From: a virus
Taxonomy: Duplodnaviria; Caudoviricetes
Direction: 5' to 3' (one strand)
Length of the DNA stretch: 64,000 nt
IMG/VR virus record: IMGVR_UViG_3300031555_003442
Location: 113,809 to 177,808 of that record
The notes beneath the pieces are model-generated. The model had not been told where the DNA came from. It worked only from the letters and a program-made list of their open reading frames with translations, and did not search any database. A program made the translations under genes and the position numbers. Positions 13,951-54,763 of the stretch are shown piece after piece. The number at the start of each line of letters is the position of its first letter. Within the stretch, counting starts at the first letter, position 1.

Positions 13951-15087
13951 ATGCAGTTTGGTGTTATCGAGAAGAGAATTACACGTTTATGGAACAAGAC
14001 CCCAGCATTGCTCATCGGACCTCCTGGAATAGGAAAGACGCAGTTCTGCCGTGGCCTTGCAGCAAAGCTTGGATTGAACCTTGTCTGCCTCGACTGTTCG
14101 CAGTCGGGGGACTCTGGCGACCTTATAGGATTGCTTGAAATTGAGAACCATGTACACCACCATACGAAACCCGCCTGGATGGACACGACGGAAGCGACCC
14201 TCGTCTTCATCGACGAAATCAACAGGGCCAAGGGCGAAATCATCGCCGCCCTGATGAAACTGTGTTCCCCAGAACAGTCGTTCAACGGTTTCACTCTCCC
14301 AGAGGGCTCCCGTGTCGTTGTCGCAATCAACCCTTCCAGCGTGGATTCCAACCAGGTGCTTCCAATCAACCGTGCGCTTTTCACCCGTTTCGCCAGATAC
14401 CACGTCGAGGTGGACGCTAAGTACTGGTGCAGGTGGGCCGCAAACGCTGGAATCAACCAGACAATCATACGCTTCATCGACAGCCACAACAACGCCCTCT
14501 ATGTGGATGATACCGAGCTTGATTCGGAAGACGAAAACACGGCCAACCCCCGTTCATGGGAGAATTTCGCCCGTCTTTTCGACAACGCATACAAGGCGGG
14601 CGACTATGTGGACGAAAACGGCCTGCCAAGACCAGGCGGGATGGAAACCCTGCTGGTAGACGCCACTTCCACGCTCGGCCCCGACATGGCCAAGACTTTC
14701 ACCGAATGGTTCAAGAAGAACGGGAATAAGCTCGATGCAGAGGATGTTCTTCATGCGAACGAATGGGACTGGGTGAAATTCAAGAGTATCATCGACGGGA
14801 TGAGCGCAATGCAGCTTACAAAGCTGAGCGATGCCATCGTCAGCAAGATGGCGAACGCCTACGAGAATTCAAGGCAGACGAGGACTATGTCCCTGAACTT
14901 CTGGTACTACTACTTCGCAGTCAAGCCAGAGATAAAGGCCCAGATGTACAACATGCACCTGATAGACCTTGTCCTGCAGATTTCCGAGGGAAAGGACAAC
15001 TGGCTCTCTCGCCTGAGGGAACATGTCGGCGAAGATAAGAAGATGATGCTCAAATCCAGTTTCAGCGAGTTCAACCAGGTTAACTGA
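13951..15087 (+). CDS. MoxR-like AAA+ ATPase
   Basis: GPPGIGKT, VFIDEINR, ALFTRF, NPRSWE. Confidence 0.88.
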   Translation: MQFGVIEKRITRLWNKTPALLIGPPGIGKTQFCRGLAAKLGLNLVCLDCSQSGDSGDLIGLLEIENHVHHHTKPAWMDTTEATLVFIDEINRAKGEIIAALMKLCSPEQSFNGFTLPEGSRVVVAINPSSVDSNQVLPINRALFTRFARYHVEVDAKYWCRWAANAGINQTIIRFIDSHNNALYVDDTELDSEDENTANPRSWENFARLFDNAYKAGDYVDENGLPRPGGMETLLVDATSTLGPDMAKTFTEWFKKNGNKLDAEDVLHANEWDWVKFKSIIDGMSAMQLTKLSDAIVSKMANAYENSRQTRTMSLNFWYYYFAVKPEIKAQMYNMHLIDLVLQISEGKDNWLSRLREHVGEDKKMMLKSSFSEFNQVN

Positions 15088-16403
15088 TGTCCGCTCTCAG
15101 CAAGATAGAACAGGCCAAGGTAATTCTAGGCTCCGTGAATCCAGCCGCCATGTGCTACATAAACATGGCGCACCCTATCGTCGAGGACGACAGGACGGCT
15201 ACGCTCATGCTCGACGCACACATTCCTGGGGAACTCTACCTTGTCGCAAACAGCGGCTGGGTCAACAGGATGGACATGAGCGACCTCGCCAAGATTCTTT
15301 ACATAGAGGCTTCCCGAATTGCGTTGCAACATGTGACCAAACGTGCGGTCGACAACAAATTCAATCTGCTTTCGAGCGACATAATCTGCTACTCGATGGC
15401 GAGGGGATGCCTCACCCTGAACGGAACGTCCTTCCCAGACTCGCTGGACAGGAGCAAGGCGAACATCTACTACGAGCAGGGCAAGGTGCTGTACAAGCAC
15501 GAGACTGGAAATGAATGGACGGACGAGTGCGATTTCCACGAGAGGGTGGCCATGTGGATGGAACGGGCCGCCAACAATTCTGACGACGGGGATGCCGACC
15601 CAGATTCTGACGGCCAGCCTGACGAATCGGCTGGTGGCGACGGCGATGGAAGCCCGCAGGGAGCCCTCGATGCATACTTCTGTGACGAAACCCGTTCCGA
15701 GAACTGGTCGCCCAACGAGACCGTTTCGAGCGACATCGCCATGGAGACGAAGCATCTCGAAGAGAACGGAGGGTTCGACGGGACTGGCTGGGGCCTGAGC
15801 GCAGGGAACATCATGCTGAAGATTCTTGCCGCACAGGAACCTCCCGTAGATTACAGGAGGATAATCCGTTCGTTCGTCGGCACGGTCGTTTCCCAGCGTA
15901 CGGAATCGACCCGACTGAGGCAGAACAGGCGTTACAACCTGCTGTTCCCAGGCCAGCGTTCCGTATACGACTGCAAGCTGCTCCTTGCCGCAGACTCGTC
16001 TGGTTCTATGGATGACGACGACCTGTCTGCTGCTGGTTGCCTTATAGCAAAGATAGCGACTGGATGCCAGATAGACTACTGCTGGTGGGACTGTAACTGC
16101 ACCCTGCCGAAGACATTCAAGCGTGGATTTTCCAAGAGCGGGTTCGATGTCGAGGGACGTGGCGGGACGAACCCCCAGTGCGTTTTCGACATGCTCGGGG
16201 ATAATAAACTGATGGGGAAGTATTCGGGCATCATCATCTTTTCCGACATGATTTTCGACGAGATACCTAAACCAAAGGGCATTCCAGTCGACAACATGCT
16301 GTGGATATGCACCGCTGACGGTAGCGAGCCCCCGAGCTGGGTTCCACGCCGTAGGATTATGCGGTGCAAGGAAATTATGAGTTGCATCAAAAAAAGGACT
16401 TGA
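15087..16403 (+). CDS. DUF2201-type peptidase-like + vWA domain protein
   Basis: MIDAS ADSSGSM, GRGGTN, IIFSD; acidic linker; coupled to AAA gene. Confidence 0.85.
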   Translation: MSALSKIEQAKVILGSVNPAAMCYINMAHPIVEDDRTATLMLDAHIPGELYLVANSGWVNRMDMSDLAKILYIEASRIALQHVTKRAVDNKFNLLSSDIICYSMARGCLTLNGTSFPDSLDRSKANIYYEQGKVLYKHETGNEWTDECDFHERVAMWMERAANNSDDGDADPDSDGQPDESAGGDGDGSPQGALDAYFCDETRSENWSPNETVSSDIAMETKHLEENGGFDGTGWGLSAGNIMLKILAAQEPPVDYRRIIRSFVGTVVSQRTESTRLRQNRRYNLLFPGQRSVYDCKLLLAADSSGSMDDDDLSAAGCLIAKIATGCQIDYCWWDCNCTLPKTFKRGFSKSGFDVEGRGGTNPQCVFDMLGDNKLMGKYSGIIIFSDMIFDEIPKPKGIPVDNMLWICTADGSEPPSWVPRRRIMRCKEIMSCIKKRT

Positions 16404-16742: not shown

Positions 16743-19682
16743 ATGAGTGAGACGCAAGAACTTCCAAAGAAGAAGATGTGGTCGACCATATACCATGATA
16801 CGGTCAACGACAAGATGTATATGTGGTATGTGGACGGCACGACCGATGTCCTCCCCGTCAAGCACCGTTCCTACACGAACCGTCTGGGTGAATTCGGTGC
16901 CGTAGAATGCGGCATGAAGGACATTTTCGGAAACGAGGTTTACGAATTCTACCTTTCCCACAACGAAGAAAAGGAAATCAAGCGCCAGTACCAGGGCACG
17001 CTTAACCATTTCAACGAGATTGATATCGACCCACGATGCCGATTCCTGCAGCAGCTCTATGAAGGCTATGATATCGAACACCCGAACATCAAGGATATCA
17101 ACCTCTGCTTCATGGATATCGAAGTGTCGACCGAGGGTAGGTTTCCTGTCCCTTGGTTGGCCGAATATCCGATTAACCTCATCGTCCTTAACTTCCCCGA
17201 GTATTCCGTGCAGTTTGGAACGCTCGACGTGGATGAGGCTACCCTTGAAAAGTACAAGGAACTGAACTGCCGGTATATCAAGTGTTCCACCGAACAGGAA
17301 CTGCTCACTGCGACTTTCAACTACATCAGGGAACACGGGGTTGACATCCTCTCTGGATGGAACTTCTCTTACGATACCGAGTATACATACCGTAGGGCCA
17401 AGAAGTTCGGAATCCCCCTCCCGCTCATGTCGAGAATGCCGAAGGGATGCGAAAGGGCTTACTTCGACGAGAGAAAGCGTGAACTCCATGTGGCCGGCAC
17501 GGAAGTTATGGACTTCCTCGCCCTCTACAAGAAGTACACCTTCTCGGAAGAACCCAGCTACAAGCTCGATGCAATCGGTGAAAAGGAAGTGGGCGAGAAC
17601 AAGGTTCCGCTTCCAGACGGATACCTGTCGTGGAAAACCTACCCGTCGTTGTTTGCGTACTATAACGTGATAGACGGTGTCCTGTGTAGAAAAATCCAGA
17701 ACAAGACAAAGATGTTCGACCTTGCGCTCATGTCTTCTGCCGAGGCCCGAGTGCCGATTACATCGGTGTTCGAATCCAAGAAGATGATGGTGGGCTTCGT
17801 CCTGAACCACCTGCACAAACAGAACATGGTGTTCCCCGTTTACAGGCCGACTGCGAAGGAGGAATACCCTGGCGCCTTCGTGTATTCAGTCCCAGGTTTC
17901 TACAAGATTGAAGTGTCGTACGACTACCGAAGCCTGTACCCGTCAATCATGATGACGTTCAACATCAGCCCCGAAACCAAGGTCATCAAGCCTATCGACT
18001 ACGTGCTGACGGAAGAGGAGAAGAAAGTCCTCATCAGGTCGCCTTGGACGCACAACGGGCAATATCAGGTGTTCTACCGAAAGGATGTCGAGGGTATCGT
18101 CCCGCAGGTTACTAGAAAGCTGTTCAACGGTCGTGCCGAACTGAAGATTAAGAAGAAGCAGGCTGAAAAGGACGGTAACGAAGAACTGATGAACATCTAC
18201 GACATGATGCAGAAGGTGTACAAGGTTCTCGGTAACTCACTGTACGGCTTGCTCGGTACTCCGTTCTTTGCGTTCTACGATATCGACAATGCTGCTTCAA
18301 TCACTGGCTACGGTCAGAGGCTCATCAAGTACACCTGCAAGCACCTTGCAGACTACATCAACAACGACCTTGCTCTCGACCAGAGGTTCATCGACACGTT
18401 CGGATACTCCCCGAAAATCAACAAGGATTACTGCGGCGAGATATTCTGGAATGAGGCGAATGTTGACTTCGACGATGTGGAAAAGGCTACCGAATGGGGT
18501 TACGACATCACGAGCGACATCCTGCAAAGAAGAATGTCCCACGGTGATACCGACTCGTTCTACGCCAAGTTCGACGACATCTACGAGGAGTTCAGCAAGA
18601 ACCAGGGCAAGAAGGTCCAGGTCGTCGTATATGACGGACACCAGATTATACAGAAGAACGAATTCGATGCGATGGACGAGATGGCATACAAGAAGAACTT
18701 CGCCCTCATGGCCCATACCTACTGCCCCGATGTCTACGACAAGCCATCGAACAGGGAGCCTCAGGAAATCAAGGGCAGCAAGTTCAAGTTCTCCAAGTTG
18801 CAGATTATGTACAAGGACGGCATGATTTCGAACAAGCGATACCGTGTCATCGTGAACCGTTACCGCCTCACCGACTTCTGCCGCATGCTCGACGCATCAA
18901 TCCTCGAAGAAAAGCTCGACGAGTACATGCTTGGCTACGCTTCCTCATGGGGATTCCGTACGAACGAGCTGTTCCTGAAACGTGAAAAGTGCATTTACAA
19001 GACCATCGTGACGGCCAAGAAGAAATACATCTGCGTGGCCGAATCGAACGAAGACATCGTCTACCTTGACAAGAAGAAGGAAGACCTGCCTATCCACCCG
19101 CACTACGCAATCACGGGTCTCGAAATCGTGCGTTCATCAACGACCATGTTCTCACGAGAACGTATGATGAACACCGTGGAACTCATGATGGATACCATGG
19201 ACAGGGAAACCCTACGCAAGCGTGTTGTCGAAATCAAGGACGAGTACACGCAGAAGATTATCGACAAGTCGTACCTCGATATCTCCTGCCCGTCTGGTGT
19301 CAAGGAAGAACCTCCCGAGTACACCGAGATGATTAACTTCCCGAAGGAAGAGTTGAAGAAAATCGACTGGCGCCGCAAGGCAGCTTCCGTATGGAACTAC
19401 CTCATCCTCAATGACAGTGAACTCATGAAGTTCCCTTACGAACCGATTCACGCTGGCGACAAGATGAAGTACATCAAGGTGTGCGACAACCCGTTCGGTA
19501 TAACCTCTATCGGTTACACTGGCGATGTAGTCCCGCCTCGTCTTCTCCAACTGTTCCAGCCCGATTGGGAAGGCCACTGGAAGGTGACCGTCTCCAACAT
19601 CCTTGGGCGCCTATTCAAGGCTGTCGGATGGGGCGAGAACATCGAGGAAGACCAGACCGAAATGATGTGCGACCTGTTCTAA
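16743..19682 (+). CDS. Family B DNA polymerase (T4 gp43-like) with 3'-5' exonuclease
   Basis: DIE, GWN..YD, YN..D; DYRSLYPS, KVLGNSLYG, HGDTDS, KKKY, GLEIVRSST. Confidence 0.95.
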   Translation: MSETQELPKKKMWSTIYHDTVNDKMYMWYVDGTTDVLPVKHRSYTNRLGEFGAVECGMKDIFGNEVYEFYLSHNEEKEIKRQYQGTLNHFNEIDIDPRCRFLQQLYEGYDIEHPNIKDINLCFMDIEVSTEGRFPVPWLAEYPINLIVLNFPEYSVQFGTLDVDEATLEKYKELNCRYIKCSTEQELLTATFNYIREHGVDILSGWNFSYDTEYTYRRAKKFGIPLPLMSRMPKGCERAYFDERKRELHVAGTEVMDFLALYKKYTFSEEPSYKLDAIGEKEVGENKVPLPDGYLSWKTYPSLFAYYNVIDGVLCRKIQNKTKMFDLALMSSAEARVPITSVFESKKMMVGFVLNHLHKQNMVFPVYRPTAKEEYPGAFVYSVPGFYKIEVSYDYRSLYPSIMMTFNISPETKVIKPIDYVLTEEEKKVLIRSPWTHNGQYQVFYRKDVEGIVPQVTRKLFNGRAELKIKKKQAEKDGNEELMNIYDMMQKVYKVLGNSLYGLLGTPFFAFYDIDNAASITGYGQRLIKYTCKHLADYINNDLALDQRFIDTFGYSPKINKDYCGEIFWNEANVDFDDVEKATEWGYDITSDILQRRMSHGDTDSFYAKFDDIYEEFSKNQGKKVQVVVYDGHQIIQKNEFDAMDEMAYKKNFALMAHTYCPDVYDKPSNREPQEIKGSKFKFSKLQIMYKDGMISNKRYRVIVNRYRLTDFCRMLDASILEEKLDEYMLGYASSWGFRTNELFLKREKCIYKTIVTAKKKYICVAESNEDIVYLDKKKEDLPIHPHYAITGLEIVRSSTTMFSRERMMNTVELMMDTMDRETLRKRVVEIKDEYTQKIIDKSYLDISCPSGVKEEPPEYTEMINFPKEELKKIDWRRKAASVWNYLILNDSELMKFPYEPIHAGDKMKYIKVCDNPFGITSIGYTGDVVPPRLLQLFQPDWEGHWKVTVSNILGRLFKAVGWGENIEEDQTEMMCDLF

Positions 19683-44459: not shown

Positions 44460-45755
44460 CTATGCAAAAGTGTATATAGAATAGCACTTTTTGATATAGT
44501 TCTTGCTGAAGACTGCGTTCTGGACATAGTCCCTAAGCAGGAAGCGGTATTTCAGTCCCGTTTCTTTGATTTTTGAGAATAGTGCTTTCCAGTCATCCAC
44601 CGAACCGAGTGTTTGCTTCCATTGCTCATCTCGAAACTGTACATTGAATCTTGGATAGAACCATCCCTTATAGAATTTCTTGTATGCTCTGCGAGCAATC
44701 TCTATGCTGGCAGCAACCATATCTGGCGTAGTCTCGTTGCCGTATGAGAAGTTGCCCACGATTGACGAATATGCCGGGTTTACCTCGACCAATTCATACT
44801 TATGCAGGTTGGCAAGCATCTTCAGCTTGTTCACAAACAACCGTCGTTCCCATTTGTTGTTGCACAGCTTATTGAGCTTCTTGCCTTTCTTCATGTCCTT
44901 CGGCTTGATTGTCAGGTCCTCGATAGCAACAGTCTTGCACTTCCATACATCCACCAGCTTGCTTATTTCATGCGCTATCGCAAGAGTCTCGTGCCTTAAC
45001 TTGTTCGTAATGTACTTGGAACTGGAATCTGTGCTTGATTTTCCCGAAGAAATCGTCAGTTTGCACAAATCGAATACCTGCTTGTGCAGTACCTTGAAGT
45101 CGTCATTCTTATTGAACTCTATCACGGACACCCCGATATAATTCGGGTTCATGTCTATTCCCAATACACGTCTGGTTTGCAATGCTTTGTACTCGGCATC
45201 GTAGATAAGACTCTCTTCGTATGTAAGCCACACATATTTGTCGGACATCTTGACGGTAACGGTTATCTTGTTATTTTCCGCAAGTTCCTGCACCTTGGAA
45301 AGTTCAGCGGAAATCTTCTTCCTCATCGGAAGGAACTTGATTTCTACGTGCCTTTCTTTATTCGGCTTGTATATAAGCCGTTGATTGTCGAGGTCGAACG
45401 AGAACAATCGGTTTCCCTTGCGTAGTTTCTCGCCCTGGATTCCGATAGGGAACGTACGGCGATACTTGAACGTTGCCTTGTCTATCAAGCCACGCATATA
45501 CTGCCGTAGGTTGTTCTTTCCACCAAACAGGATATGCTTGTTACCATTCAGCTTGTACAGTGCTGCCGCTTCCTTTATAGCGGATTGGATGAACCCGCTG
45601 TTGTGGTCGAATCTTGCATTGCAGTAGGCACGGACTTCCTTCTCTTCCAGTCCGTCTTGGAAACGGTTAAAAGCAACTCGGACGATACTGCTGAACATCC
45701 GCATGTCATTCAGTACATCCACCTCGTTGCATATCGTAAGTTTAACCGTCTTCAT
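44460..45755 (-). CDS. tnpB: TnpB-related RuvC nuclease lacking the zinc finger
   Basis: VLGIDMNP, VAIEDL, VEVNPAYSS, PDMVAASIEIARR; N-terminal FGGK..GE..GNR. Confidence 0.8.
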   Translation of the reverse strand: MKTVKLTICNEVDVLNDMRMFSSIVRVAFNRFQDGLEEKEVRAYCNARFDHNSGFIQSAIKEAAALYKLNGNKHILFGGKNNLRQYMRGLIDKATFKYRRTFPIGIQGEKLRKGNRLFSFDLDNQRLIYKPNKERHVEIKFLPMRKKISAELSKVQELAENNKITVTVKMSDKYVWLTYEESLIYDAEYKALQTRRVLGIDMNPNYIGVSVIEFNKNDDFKVLHKQVFDLCKLTISSGKSSTDSSSKYITNKLRHETLAIAHEISKLVDVWKCKTVAIEDLTIKPKDMKKGKKLNKLCNNKWERRLFVNKLKMLANLHKYELVEVNPAYSSIVGNFSYGNETTPDMVAASIEIARRAYKKFYKGWFYPRFNVQFRDEQWKQTLGSVDDWKALFSKIKETGLKYRFLLRDYVQNAVFSKNYIKKCYSIYTFA

Positions 45756-45763
45756 AATCAAAA

Positions 45764-54504: not shown

Positions 54505-54516
54505 AGGCAATTAGAA

Positions 54517-54625
54517 ATGCCCCGATGACGCTTTTTGTGGAGTTCAGCATCACCAGGGCATAAAAATCCTTGATTTCAATAAGCCGAGAACTCCACTAAT
54601 CGACCTATTCATAAATAAGTTTATA
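54517..54625 (-). ncRNA. Late promoter plus two-hairpin kissing-loop leader of tnpB-2
   Basis: TATAAACT 54625-54618; loop GUGGAGUUC (54596-54588) complementary to loop GAACUCCAC (54545-54537). Confidence 0.7.
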
Positions 54626-54675: not shown

Positions 54676-54763
54676 GCATCATCCCACGGATAAAGACTTG
54701 GGCTTTCGGTTCAGCGTAATGCCGAGAATCGAAATGATTTTCGGTTTTTTTCATATCCATGTC

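What the first reader, a model, noticed from the sequence alone, without database searches (positions are those of the whole stretch)
54505..54625. Second, sequence-unrelated copy of the two-hairpin complementary-loop leader, inside the IS605-family element
SEEN, minus strand: TATAAACT, 8 nt, hairpin A (10 bp, AAUAGGUCGA-[UUAGUGGAGUUC]-UCGGCUUAUU), 16 nt, hairpin B (16 bp, AUGCCCUGGUGAUGCU-[GAACUCCACAAAA]-AGCGUCAUCGGGGCAU), 12 nt, AUG with no SD. The loops share a perfect 9-nt complement, and five G-U pairs all favour the mRNA strand. The loop code (GUGGAGUUC) differs from copy 1 (GGUCGAG), so the two leaders would be orthogonal. INFERENCE: conserved structure without conserved sequence argues for a selected RNA class. 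Element-specific loops could also act in trans as an antisense/immunity code, loosely like P1 c4 or P4 CI RNAs.
Basis: partly seen in the sequence, partly recalled or inferred. Interest (0 to 1): 0.85.

Follow-up and report, generated by a model that had tools for sequence, protein, structure and literature searches.

The report
Kissing-hairpin leader RNA before phage tnpB
The roughly 115 bases in front of this rumen jumbo-phage tnpB nuclease gene form a real folded RNA leader, not in Rfam and not found in the papers searched, in which the tips of two hairpins always pair with each other; it most likely controls how much nuclease is made rather than acting as an address code.

Summary
On the minus strand lie TATAAACT, hairpin A (10 bp), hairpin B (16 bp), a perfect 9-nt loop-loop complement, five G-U pairs, then 12 nt to an AUG with no SD.

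It is not chance. In 22 distinct related leaders the loop-loop helix is 99.5% paired. Six of its nine pairs change on both sides, none is G-U, and I counted 14 different 9-mers. Both stems covary as well.

The leader lies inside an IS608-like tnpB-only element (TTAC...TCAA-type ends). It sits between a phage promoter box and the SD-less start codon.

A model built from it finds the same leader before at least four TnpB lineages and one zinc-finger ORF. One of these is a third tnpB in this phage. Copy 1 belongs to a second type with 7-nt loops (4 instances, all complementary). It precedes a Cas12f/TnpB-fold protein and, in another contig, a canonical TnpB.

Best reading: a cis-acting 5' leader that gates expression of selfish nuclease genes. 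The "orthogonal trans code" idea gains no support. Co-resident copies can share a code, codes recur across gene families, and the code is no more variable than the rest of the leader.

There is no Rfam match and no paper was found. Earlier reports of this scan describe the same class on other phage DNA.

The parts
54618..54625 (-). TATAAACT promoter-like box (the phage's own recurrent motif, T4-late-like), inside the IS
   Evidence: It is enriched 9 against 1.3 expected. 23 of 29 copies lie 21-32 nt before an ORF start. It is conserved as TTATAAACTT in most related elements.
54578..54609 (-). Hairpin A: 10-bp stem and 12-nt loop (3-nt connector plus 9-nt pairing segment)
   Evidence: In helix 1, 9 of 10 pairs change on both sides across 22 leaders.
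54588..54596 (-). Loop A pairing segment GUGGAGUUC
   Evidence: Helix 2 is 99.5% paired, 6 of 9 pairs are compensatory, and there is no G-U.
54562..54577 (-). 16-nt spacer, variable in length among relatives (10-26 nt between the stems; 19-34 nt from the end of the loop A 9-mer to the foot of hairpin B)
54517..54561 (-). Hairpin B: 16-bp stem (18-20 bp in relatives) and 13-nt loop, followed by a U-rich tail
   Evidence: Helix 3 is 99% paired, with 7 compensatory pairs and many G-U.
54537..54545 (-). Loop B pairing segment GAACUCCAC
54502..54516 (-). 12-nt SD-less linker and the AUG start of tnpB (54504-54502)
   Evidence: The start is conserved as UAUGGUUGAAUUGAAG in relatives.
53374..54504 (-). 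tnpB (376 aa from the AUG), with RuvC D/E/D and zinc finger intact
   Evidence: PF01385, PF07282; phrog_506, 1.6e-84; invariant D187, E267, D348.
54683..54719 (-). Left end of the IS: target TTAC (54719-54716), then the left-end hairpin (54702-54683), which is decayed in this copy
   Evidence: Homology among loci starts at TTAC|GCTGAAC. Relatives have CCCACGGC...GCCGTGGG.
53353..53386 (-). Right-end hairpin (the tnpB stop lies in its loop) and the element end ...GUAUGUCAC (TCAA in relatives)
   Evidence: Conservation stops after GTATGTCAA.
45753..45867 (-). Copy 1, the type II leader. TATAAACT (45867-45860); hairpin A (45854-45832, loop GGUCGAG); small middle hairpin; hairpin B (45796-45764, loop CUCGACC); U5; AUG 45755-45753.
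   Evidence: flagged terminator-like; 4 instances, kiss 100% paired, 4 of 7 pairs compensatory.
44460..45755 (-). Zinc-finger-less TnpB/Cas12f-like gene served by the type II leader
   Evidence: phrog_12300, 5e-5; D201, E279, D345 conserved; Foldseek top hits Cas12f and TnpB, E 5e-10.

Best explanation
The stretch is the 5' leader of the tnpB mRNA. Transcription starts at the promoter box just upstream of hairpin A.

The RNA folds into a 5'-proximal hairpin A and a long hairpin B. Their loops pair with each other (9 bp here, 7 bp in type II), giving a compact locked fold. The foot of hairpin B lies 6-20 nt from a start codon with no Shine-Dalgarno.

I infer that this fold limits or times production of the nuclease. 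Hairpin B crowds the ribosome landing site, and its U-rich tail may also stop part of the transcripts before the gene.

The same cassette has been placed in front of several selfish-type genes in this group of rumen phages.

Shown: the structure, its conservation, its position and its gene association.
Inferred: that it is RNA acting in cis, and the direction of its effect.
For: Structure:
- Both stems and the kiss covary (96.2% of cells paired against 77.7% in shuffles; 22 pairs with changes on both sides; 0 of 500 shuffles reach this). Sliding the partner columns drops pairing to about 40%.
- The same holds for type II.

Strand:
- There are many G-U pairs in the stems, so the fold exists only on the sense strand.

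Position:
- A promoter box always lies just 5' of hairpin A: TATAAACT, TATAAACA, TATAAATA, or TTGACA-N17-TATATT in L244.
- Hairpin B always ends 6-20 nt before an SD-less AUG.
- Type II hairpin B scores as an intrinsic terminator.

Gene association:
- All 3 TnpB-type genes of this phage have such a leader. The 23 other TATAAACT-driven genes with ORF starts 21-32 nt away do not.
- R1 or the hairpin B pattern finds the leader before at least 4 TnpB lineages and a C2H2 zinc-finger ORF.

Optional module:
- Relatives at 59-83% identity lack the leader and have short ones instead. This fits a regulatory add-on, not a part of the transposition machinery.
Against: - No transcript data.
- The start codon itself is not paired in the predicted folds, so repression of translation is not obvious.
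- Type I hairpin B has a 13-nt loop and a weak U tract, and the terminator scan did not flag it.
- The kiss never shows a G-U pair, although the stems often do. A purely structural role does not explain this.
Confidence: 0.55

Rival explanations
1. Trans-acting specificity code. Hairpin A, or the whole leader, acts on hairpin B of other transcripts of the same element type. This would give element-specific copy control or immunity, as in P1 c4 or P4 CI.
For: - Many different codes exist (14 counted).
- Changes are mostly transversions with no G-U intermediates.
- One 215-kb phage carries three family-1 elements with three different codes.
Against: - Co-resident copies share a code in two contigs (L150/L156, L218/L220).
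- The same codes recur before different gene families.
- Code columns are no more variable than the rest of the leader (mean entropy 0.59 against 0.5-1.4).
- No terminator or promoter sets hairpin A apart.
- The code was not found elsewhere in the loci.
- No Rfam C4 match.
Confidence: 0.1
2. Stabiliser or processing signal. The 5'-terminal hairpin and the rod-like A-kiss-B fold protect the mRNA from 5'-end-dependent decay, or form a double-strand RNase site. The effect would be to raise or time expression, not to limit it.
For: - Hairpin A starts within a few nt of the expected start site.
- Hairpin B is 18-20 bp in most copies.
- The start codon is left free.
Against: - A single 5' hairpin is enough for protection, so the strictly kept kiss is not explained.
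- There are no data on cleavage.
Confidence: 0.15
3. Protein-binding operator. A phage or host RNA-binding protein, or TnpB itself, recognises the locked fold and represses or activates translation.
For: - The scaffold nucleotides of hairpin B and the fixed flanks of the code (xUG....UC / GA....CAx) are conserved far more than pairing alone requires.
- The kiss is strictly Watson-Crick.
Against: - The leader serves TnpB lineages only 27-37% identical and also a non-TnpB ORF, so TnpB-specific binding is unlikely.
- No candidate protein was identified.
Confidence: 0.12
4. Single-stranded DNA structure used in IS200/IS605 transposition, or a second part of the guide (omega) RNA.
For: - It lies inside the element on the strand that carries TTAC and TCAA.
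Against: - The TnpA-type end hairpins are separate and lie elsewhere.
- Relatives with the same ends lack the module (L135/L139).
- The module also occurs before a non-IS gene (L244).
- G-T pairs are frequent.
- The canonical right end, with room for the omega RNA, is at the 3' end.
- The code does not match either flank.
Confidence: 0.05

Closest known systems
Leader hairpins that restrict expression of selfish endonuclease genes in T4-type phages (I-TevI, seg genes; from my own knowledge, not checked in papers here)
   Same: - A late-type promoter box plus RNA structure lies directly before a mobile nuclease gene in a large lytic-type phage.
- The likely purpose is low or late expression.
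   Different: - In T4 one hairpin hides the ribosome site, and the late promoter lies inside it.
- Here the promoter lies upstream of two hairpins joined by a loop-loop helix, and the start codon is not paired.
IS200 tnpA 5' UTR (left-end terminator hairpin and start-site stem-loop; from my own knowledge)
   Same: - Same transposon superfamily.
- A structured leader inside the left part of the element is thought to keep the element's gene quiet.
   Different: - It serves tnpB, not tnpA.
- It has a kissing tertiary contact.
- It is a movable cassette, also found before non-IS genes.
- No antisense RNA is evident.
P4 CI RNA and P1/P7 c4 RNA (Rfam C4)
   Same: - Complementary segments within one leader transcript differ between related elements with compensating changes.
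   Different: - Those are processed small RNAs that act in trans on target sites, not hairpin loops kissing in cis.
- No Rfam C4 hit here.
- No sign of a separate small RNA.
Structural loop-loop complexes (ColE1 RNA I/RNA II 7-nt kissing loops; L2-L3 kiss of purine riboswitches; from my own knowledge)
   Same: - Fully Watson-Crick pairing between two hairpin loops.
- Type II uses whole 7-nt loops, as ColE1 does.
   Different: - Unlike ColE1, the pairing is intramolecular.
- Unlike riboswitches, there is no three-way junction and no ligand pocket.
- The function is different.
TnpB omega RNA (reRNA)
   Same: - A non-coding RNA tied to tnpB and carried inside the element.
   Different: - The omega RNA overlaps the 3' end of tnpB and the right end, and carries the guide.
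- This leader is at the 5' end, has no flank-derived segment, and also serves a non-TnpB gene.

Membership tests
TnpB omega RNA / reRNA | Lies at the 3' end of tnpB, overlapping the right end, with a guide taken from the flank | tested here: not met
   The leader is 5' of the AUG. The canonical right-end hairpin and end lie at 53386-53353. The code is absent from the flanks.
Rfam families, including C4, IS605-orfB-I, Pistol and other ribozymes | Match to the covariance model | tested here: not met
   No hit at gathering score in the window. At E up to 10 there were only chance-level hits, the best being Yfr8 at 20.9 bits against a cut-off of 40.
Intrinsic terminator / attenuator | G+C-rich stem, short loop, U tract directly after the stem | tested here: inconclusive
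   Type II hairpin B is flagged (13 bp, 7-nt loop, UUUUUG). Type I hairpin B is not flagged (13-nt loop, UUUC/UUUUG tail). No alternative antiterminator pairing was found.
IS200/IS605 end hairpins (TnpA-bound single-stranded DNA) | Similar imperfect hairpins near both ends, next to the cleavage sites TTAC and TCAA | tested here: not met
   Those hairpins exist separately (CCCACGGC.../CCCACGAC...). The leader hairpins have no copy at the right end.
IS608-like IS200/IS605 element (the container) | Inserted 3' of TTAC, right end ...TCAA, matching end hairpins, tnpB present | tested here: met
   There is no tnpA. In this copy the left hairpin is decayed and the end reads TCAC. The flanks differ between loci.
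Covarying RNA structure (general test) | Compensatory changes beyond shuffled and slid controls | tested here: met
   22 leaders; 4 leaders.
Antisense or immunity code acting in trans | Co-resident elements carry different codes, and a separate small RNA exists | tested here: inconclusive
   There are two contigs with the same code twice and one with three different codes. RNA data were unavailable.

The most novel reading that the evidence does not exclude
The loop pair is a programmable self-recognition code. Leaders of the same code also kiss between molecules. A selfish nuclease cassette could then sense its own copy number, or that of a co-infecting relative, and shut itself off. New codes would arise by paired changes to escape cross-control. 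This would be an antisense-like control circuit with no antisense gene.
Probability: 0.08. Interest if true: 0.85.

Novelty: new variant of a known kind. Interest (0 to 1): 0.62.

Why it matters
TnpB nucleases are the ancestors of Cas12 and are widely studied, but attention has gone to the guide RNA at their 3' end. This finding is a second, conserved RNA at the 5' end.

- It has an unusually clean, fully covarying loop-loop contact.
- It is reused as a cassette before several nuclease lineages in large rumen phages.
- It offers a testable handle on how phages and their resident mobile nucleases keep a DNA-cutting enzyme in check.
- It adds a compact natural kissing-loop module, in two structural types, to the known set of RNA regulatory folds.

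Tried and rejected
- A 14-base hairpin B pattern over viral contigs gave only chance hits. A stricter pattern worked.
- Search for a third copy of the code inside each locus or in the flank or guide region: nothing consistent.
- Alternative pairing of the 5' strand of hairpin A with the start region: marginal in about half of the leaders and absent in the rest, so not a shared feature.
- Test for excess variability of the code: negative. Code divergence (about 0.37) is flat against third-codon divergence (about 0.27), which points to shuffling of leader modules, not to measurable positive selection.
- Profile comparison of the 433-aa family with TnpB: not significant, and no PDB sequence hit. 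The fold search settled it.
- Empty-site check: no homologue of the interrupted ORF in five related phage records. All three reading frames stay open across the rejoined site, so the in-frame rejoining noted earlier is weak evidence.
- Papers: no paper held both 'TnpB' and 'kissing loop' in a relevant sense. The Rfam paper only lists IS605-orfB-I.

Full report
**Observation**

- TATAAACT at 54625-54618, then 8 nt.
- Hairpin A: a 10-bp stem (54609-54600 with 54587-54578) and a 12-nt loop.
- A 16-nt spacer.
- Hairpin B: a 16-bp stem (54561-54546 with 54532-54517) and a 13-nt loop.
- 12 nt, then AUG at 54504-54502 with no Shine-Dalgarno.

The loops hold GUGGAGUUC and GAACUCCAC, which are perfect complements (duplex -13.5 kcal/mol). 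Five G-U pairs make the fold specific to the sense strand. The stretch folds better than all 200 shuffles (z = -3.69).

I scanned the whole 178-kb virus record for two hairpins with complementary loops. With stems of at least 8 and 13 bp there were two hits, which are the two leaders. Thirty dinucleotide shuffles gave none.

**Context**

The window is the last 64 kb of a 177.8-kb viral record that CheckV rates 42% complete, so this is a jumbo-size phage. Related contigs come from rumen-type metagenomes and from ruminal MAG contigs labelled Fibrobacter and Prevotella.

TATAAACT is the phage's own recurrent box.
- It occurs 9 times in the window against 1.3 expected.
- It occurs 29 times in the record.
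- 23 of these lie 21-32 nt before an ORF start.
- Only the two TnpB-type genes have leaders of 104 and 113 nt.

The gene that follows is a complete TnpB (PF01385, PF07282; phrog_506 at 1.6e-84; RuvC D/E/D kept).

Alignments of related loci show where homology begins and ends.
- It begins right after TTAC, with a left-end hairpin (CCCACGGC...GCCGTGGG).
- It ends after a similar right-end hairpin and ...GTATGTCAA.
- The flanks are unrelated between loci.

This is therefore an IS608-like element without tnpA. The promoter box and the leader lie inside it. In this copy the left hairpin is decayed and the end reads TCAC. The leader and tnpB are intact.

**Comparative test**

Protein-guided scans gave 15 viral, 43 metagenomic and 9 genomic loci. 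In each family-1 element whose leader was complete on its contig, the 9-mer in loop A and the 9-mer in loop B are complementary, although the letters differ. L158 is the one exception and is described below. One locus (L163) is cut off inside hairpin A.

On 22 distinct leaders (A5), counting a structure with the kiss written as a pseudoknot gave these results.
- The loop-loop helix is 99.5% paired.
- 6 of its 9 pairs change on both sides.
- There are no one-sided changes, so no G-U pairs.
- Hairpin B is 99% paired and hairpin A 87.8%.
- The stems hold many G-U pairs.
- Sliding the partner columns by 1-3 drops pairing to about 40%.
- No shuffle out of 500 reaches the observed values.

One natural exception (L158) has one mismatch in the kiss and mismatches in stem B. 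It looks like a recombinant or an assembly chimera of two leader types.

**Spread**

A covariance model of the two stems (R1) hits leaders outside family 1.
- A third tnpB in this same phage, outside the window (L142). Its true start, fixed by the HTH_OrfB_IS605 domain, lies 8 nt after a hairpin B'. The loops hold CUGGCAUUC and GAAUGCCAG.
- Its 78% relative L207, with UUGGCGUUC and GAACGCCAA.
- L215, a TnpB of a further lineage.

A stricter pattern for hairpin B found the leader in other places.
- Before two further TnpB lineages: 463-aa proteins and 437-aa proteins, 27-37% identical to the others.
- Before a small C2H2 zinc-finger ORF that is driven by a TTGACA-N17-TATATT promoter.

In all I counted 14 different codes. 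Some recur before different gene families. The hairpin B scaffold is far better conserved than the proteins. The leader therefore behaves as a movable cassette.

Closer relatives of the same proteins lack it and have short leaders instead: family-1 TnpB relatives at 59% and 75% identity (L135/L139, L137), and the 83% relative of the 433-aa protein (L189).

**Copy 1 (window 45867-45753)**

Copy 1 is a second type. It has 7-nt loops that are complementary over their whole length, a small middle hairpin, and a hairpin B that scores as an intrinsic terminator. R1 does not detect it.

Four instances carry four codes: GGUCGAG, GGACGAG, GAGCGAG and GUAGCAG. All are perfectly paired, and 4 of the 7 pairs are compensatory.

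Its gene in the window is a zinc-finger-less protein. The predicted fold matches Cas12f and TnpB best (E 5e-10). In another contig the same leader type precedes a canonical 395-aa TnpB behind a TATAAATA box.

All three TnpB-type genes of this phage therefore have a kissing-hairpin leader.

**What it is not**

- It is not the omega RNA. That sits at the right end.
- It is not the TnpA-bound end structure. Those hairpins are separate.
- It is in no Rfam family.
- The code is not found in the flanks or elsewhere in the element.

**The trans code idea**

- Two contigs carry two elements with the same code, and one carries three elements with three codes.
- The code columns are no more variable than the rest of the leader, and their outer positions are fixed (xUG....UC).
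- Code divergence is flat against synonymous-type divergence, which fits exchange of leader modules.

These results give no support to orthogonality as a selected property, but they do not exclude it. The complete lack of G-U pairs in the kiss remains unexplained.

**Mechanism**

Shown:
- A sense-strand structure with a tertiary loop-loop contact.
- It is always placed between a promoter box and an SD-less start codon.
- It is attached to selfish-type genes and is optional.

Inferred:
- It is the mRNA leader and acts in cis to limit or time expression.
- It would do this through hairpin B at the ribosome landing site, partial termination at its U-rich tail, or both.

I put this at about 0.55. 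The rivals are a stabiliser or processing site (0.15), an operator for a protein (0.12), trans code control (0.10), and a DNA or guide role (0.05). No transcript data could be obtained.

**Earlier notes of this scan**

Earlier notes describe the same leader class on other rumen phage DNA, also before homing endonuclease genes. My results were obtained independently here and agree with them. Notes on this window about the promoter, the IS ends and copy 1 agree as well. One point does not hold up: the in-frame rejoining of the interrupted ORF is weak evidence, because all three frames stay open across the joint.

Noticed in passing
G000:C1 about 15,630-15,745 minus strand (L142:2578-2693, outside the window): A third tnpB of this phage (415 aa from the ATG at L142:2580) has a type I kissing leader behind a TATAAACA box. 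ORF callers extend the frame upstream through the leader, which hides it.
   Followed up: yes
L192-L201, 40-10 nt before the start codon: Relatives of the 433-aa Cas12f-like gene have no hairpin leader. They have a TTGACA...TATATT promoter and an almost leaderless start. The promoter spacer holds a short palindrome whose letters differ between loci while the dyad symmetry is kept (for example ACTATT..AATAGT, TTGTTA..TAACAA, AATGTC..GACATT).
   Followed up: no
L202:701-1987 and L204:701-1981: Two distant homologues of the 433-aa protein each hold 7 in-frame TAG codons and no other stops. This suggests phages that read TAG as an amino acid.
   Followed up: partly
L158:497-609: This leader has loop A of one code (UUGGCAGUC) and loop B of another (GACGGCCAA), plus mismatches in stem B. 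It is a natural recombinant or an assembly chimera of two leader types.
   Followed up: partly
L128/L152 spacer between hairpins A and B: The spacer is lengthened by tandem copies of TTTAGAA. The spacer therefore tolerates length change (10-26 nt between the stems).
   Followed up: no
L148-L157, L218-L220, about 20-60 nt before the TATAAACT box: Most family-1 elements also carry a TTGCCA-N17-TA(G/T)ATT sigma-70-like promoter directly before the TATAAACT box, so the leader may be served by two promoters. This part has decayed in the window copy.
   Followed up: no
window 54721-54745 (+): A terminator-like hairpin with a T7 tail lies just outside the left end of the IS, on the strand of the interrupted ORF.
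   Followed up: no
window 15087-16403 (+) and 16743-19682 (+): An HNH endonuclease-like ORF (phrog_1314) lies directly before the family-B DNA polymerase gene. No kissing leader was seen before it.
   Followed up: partly
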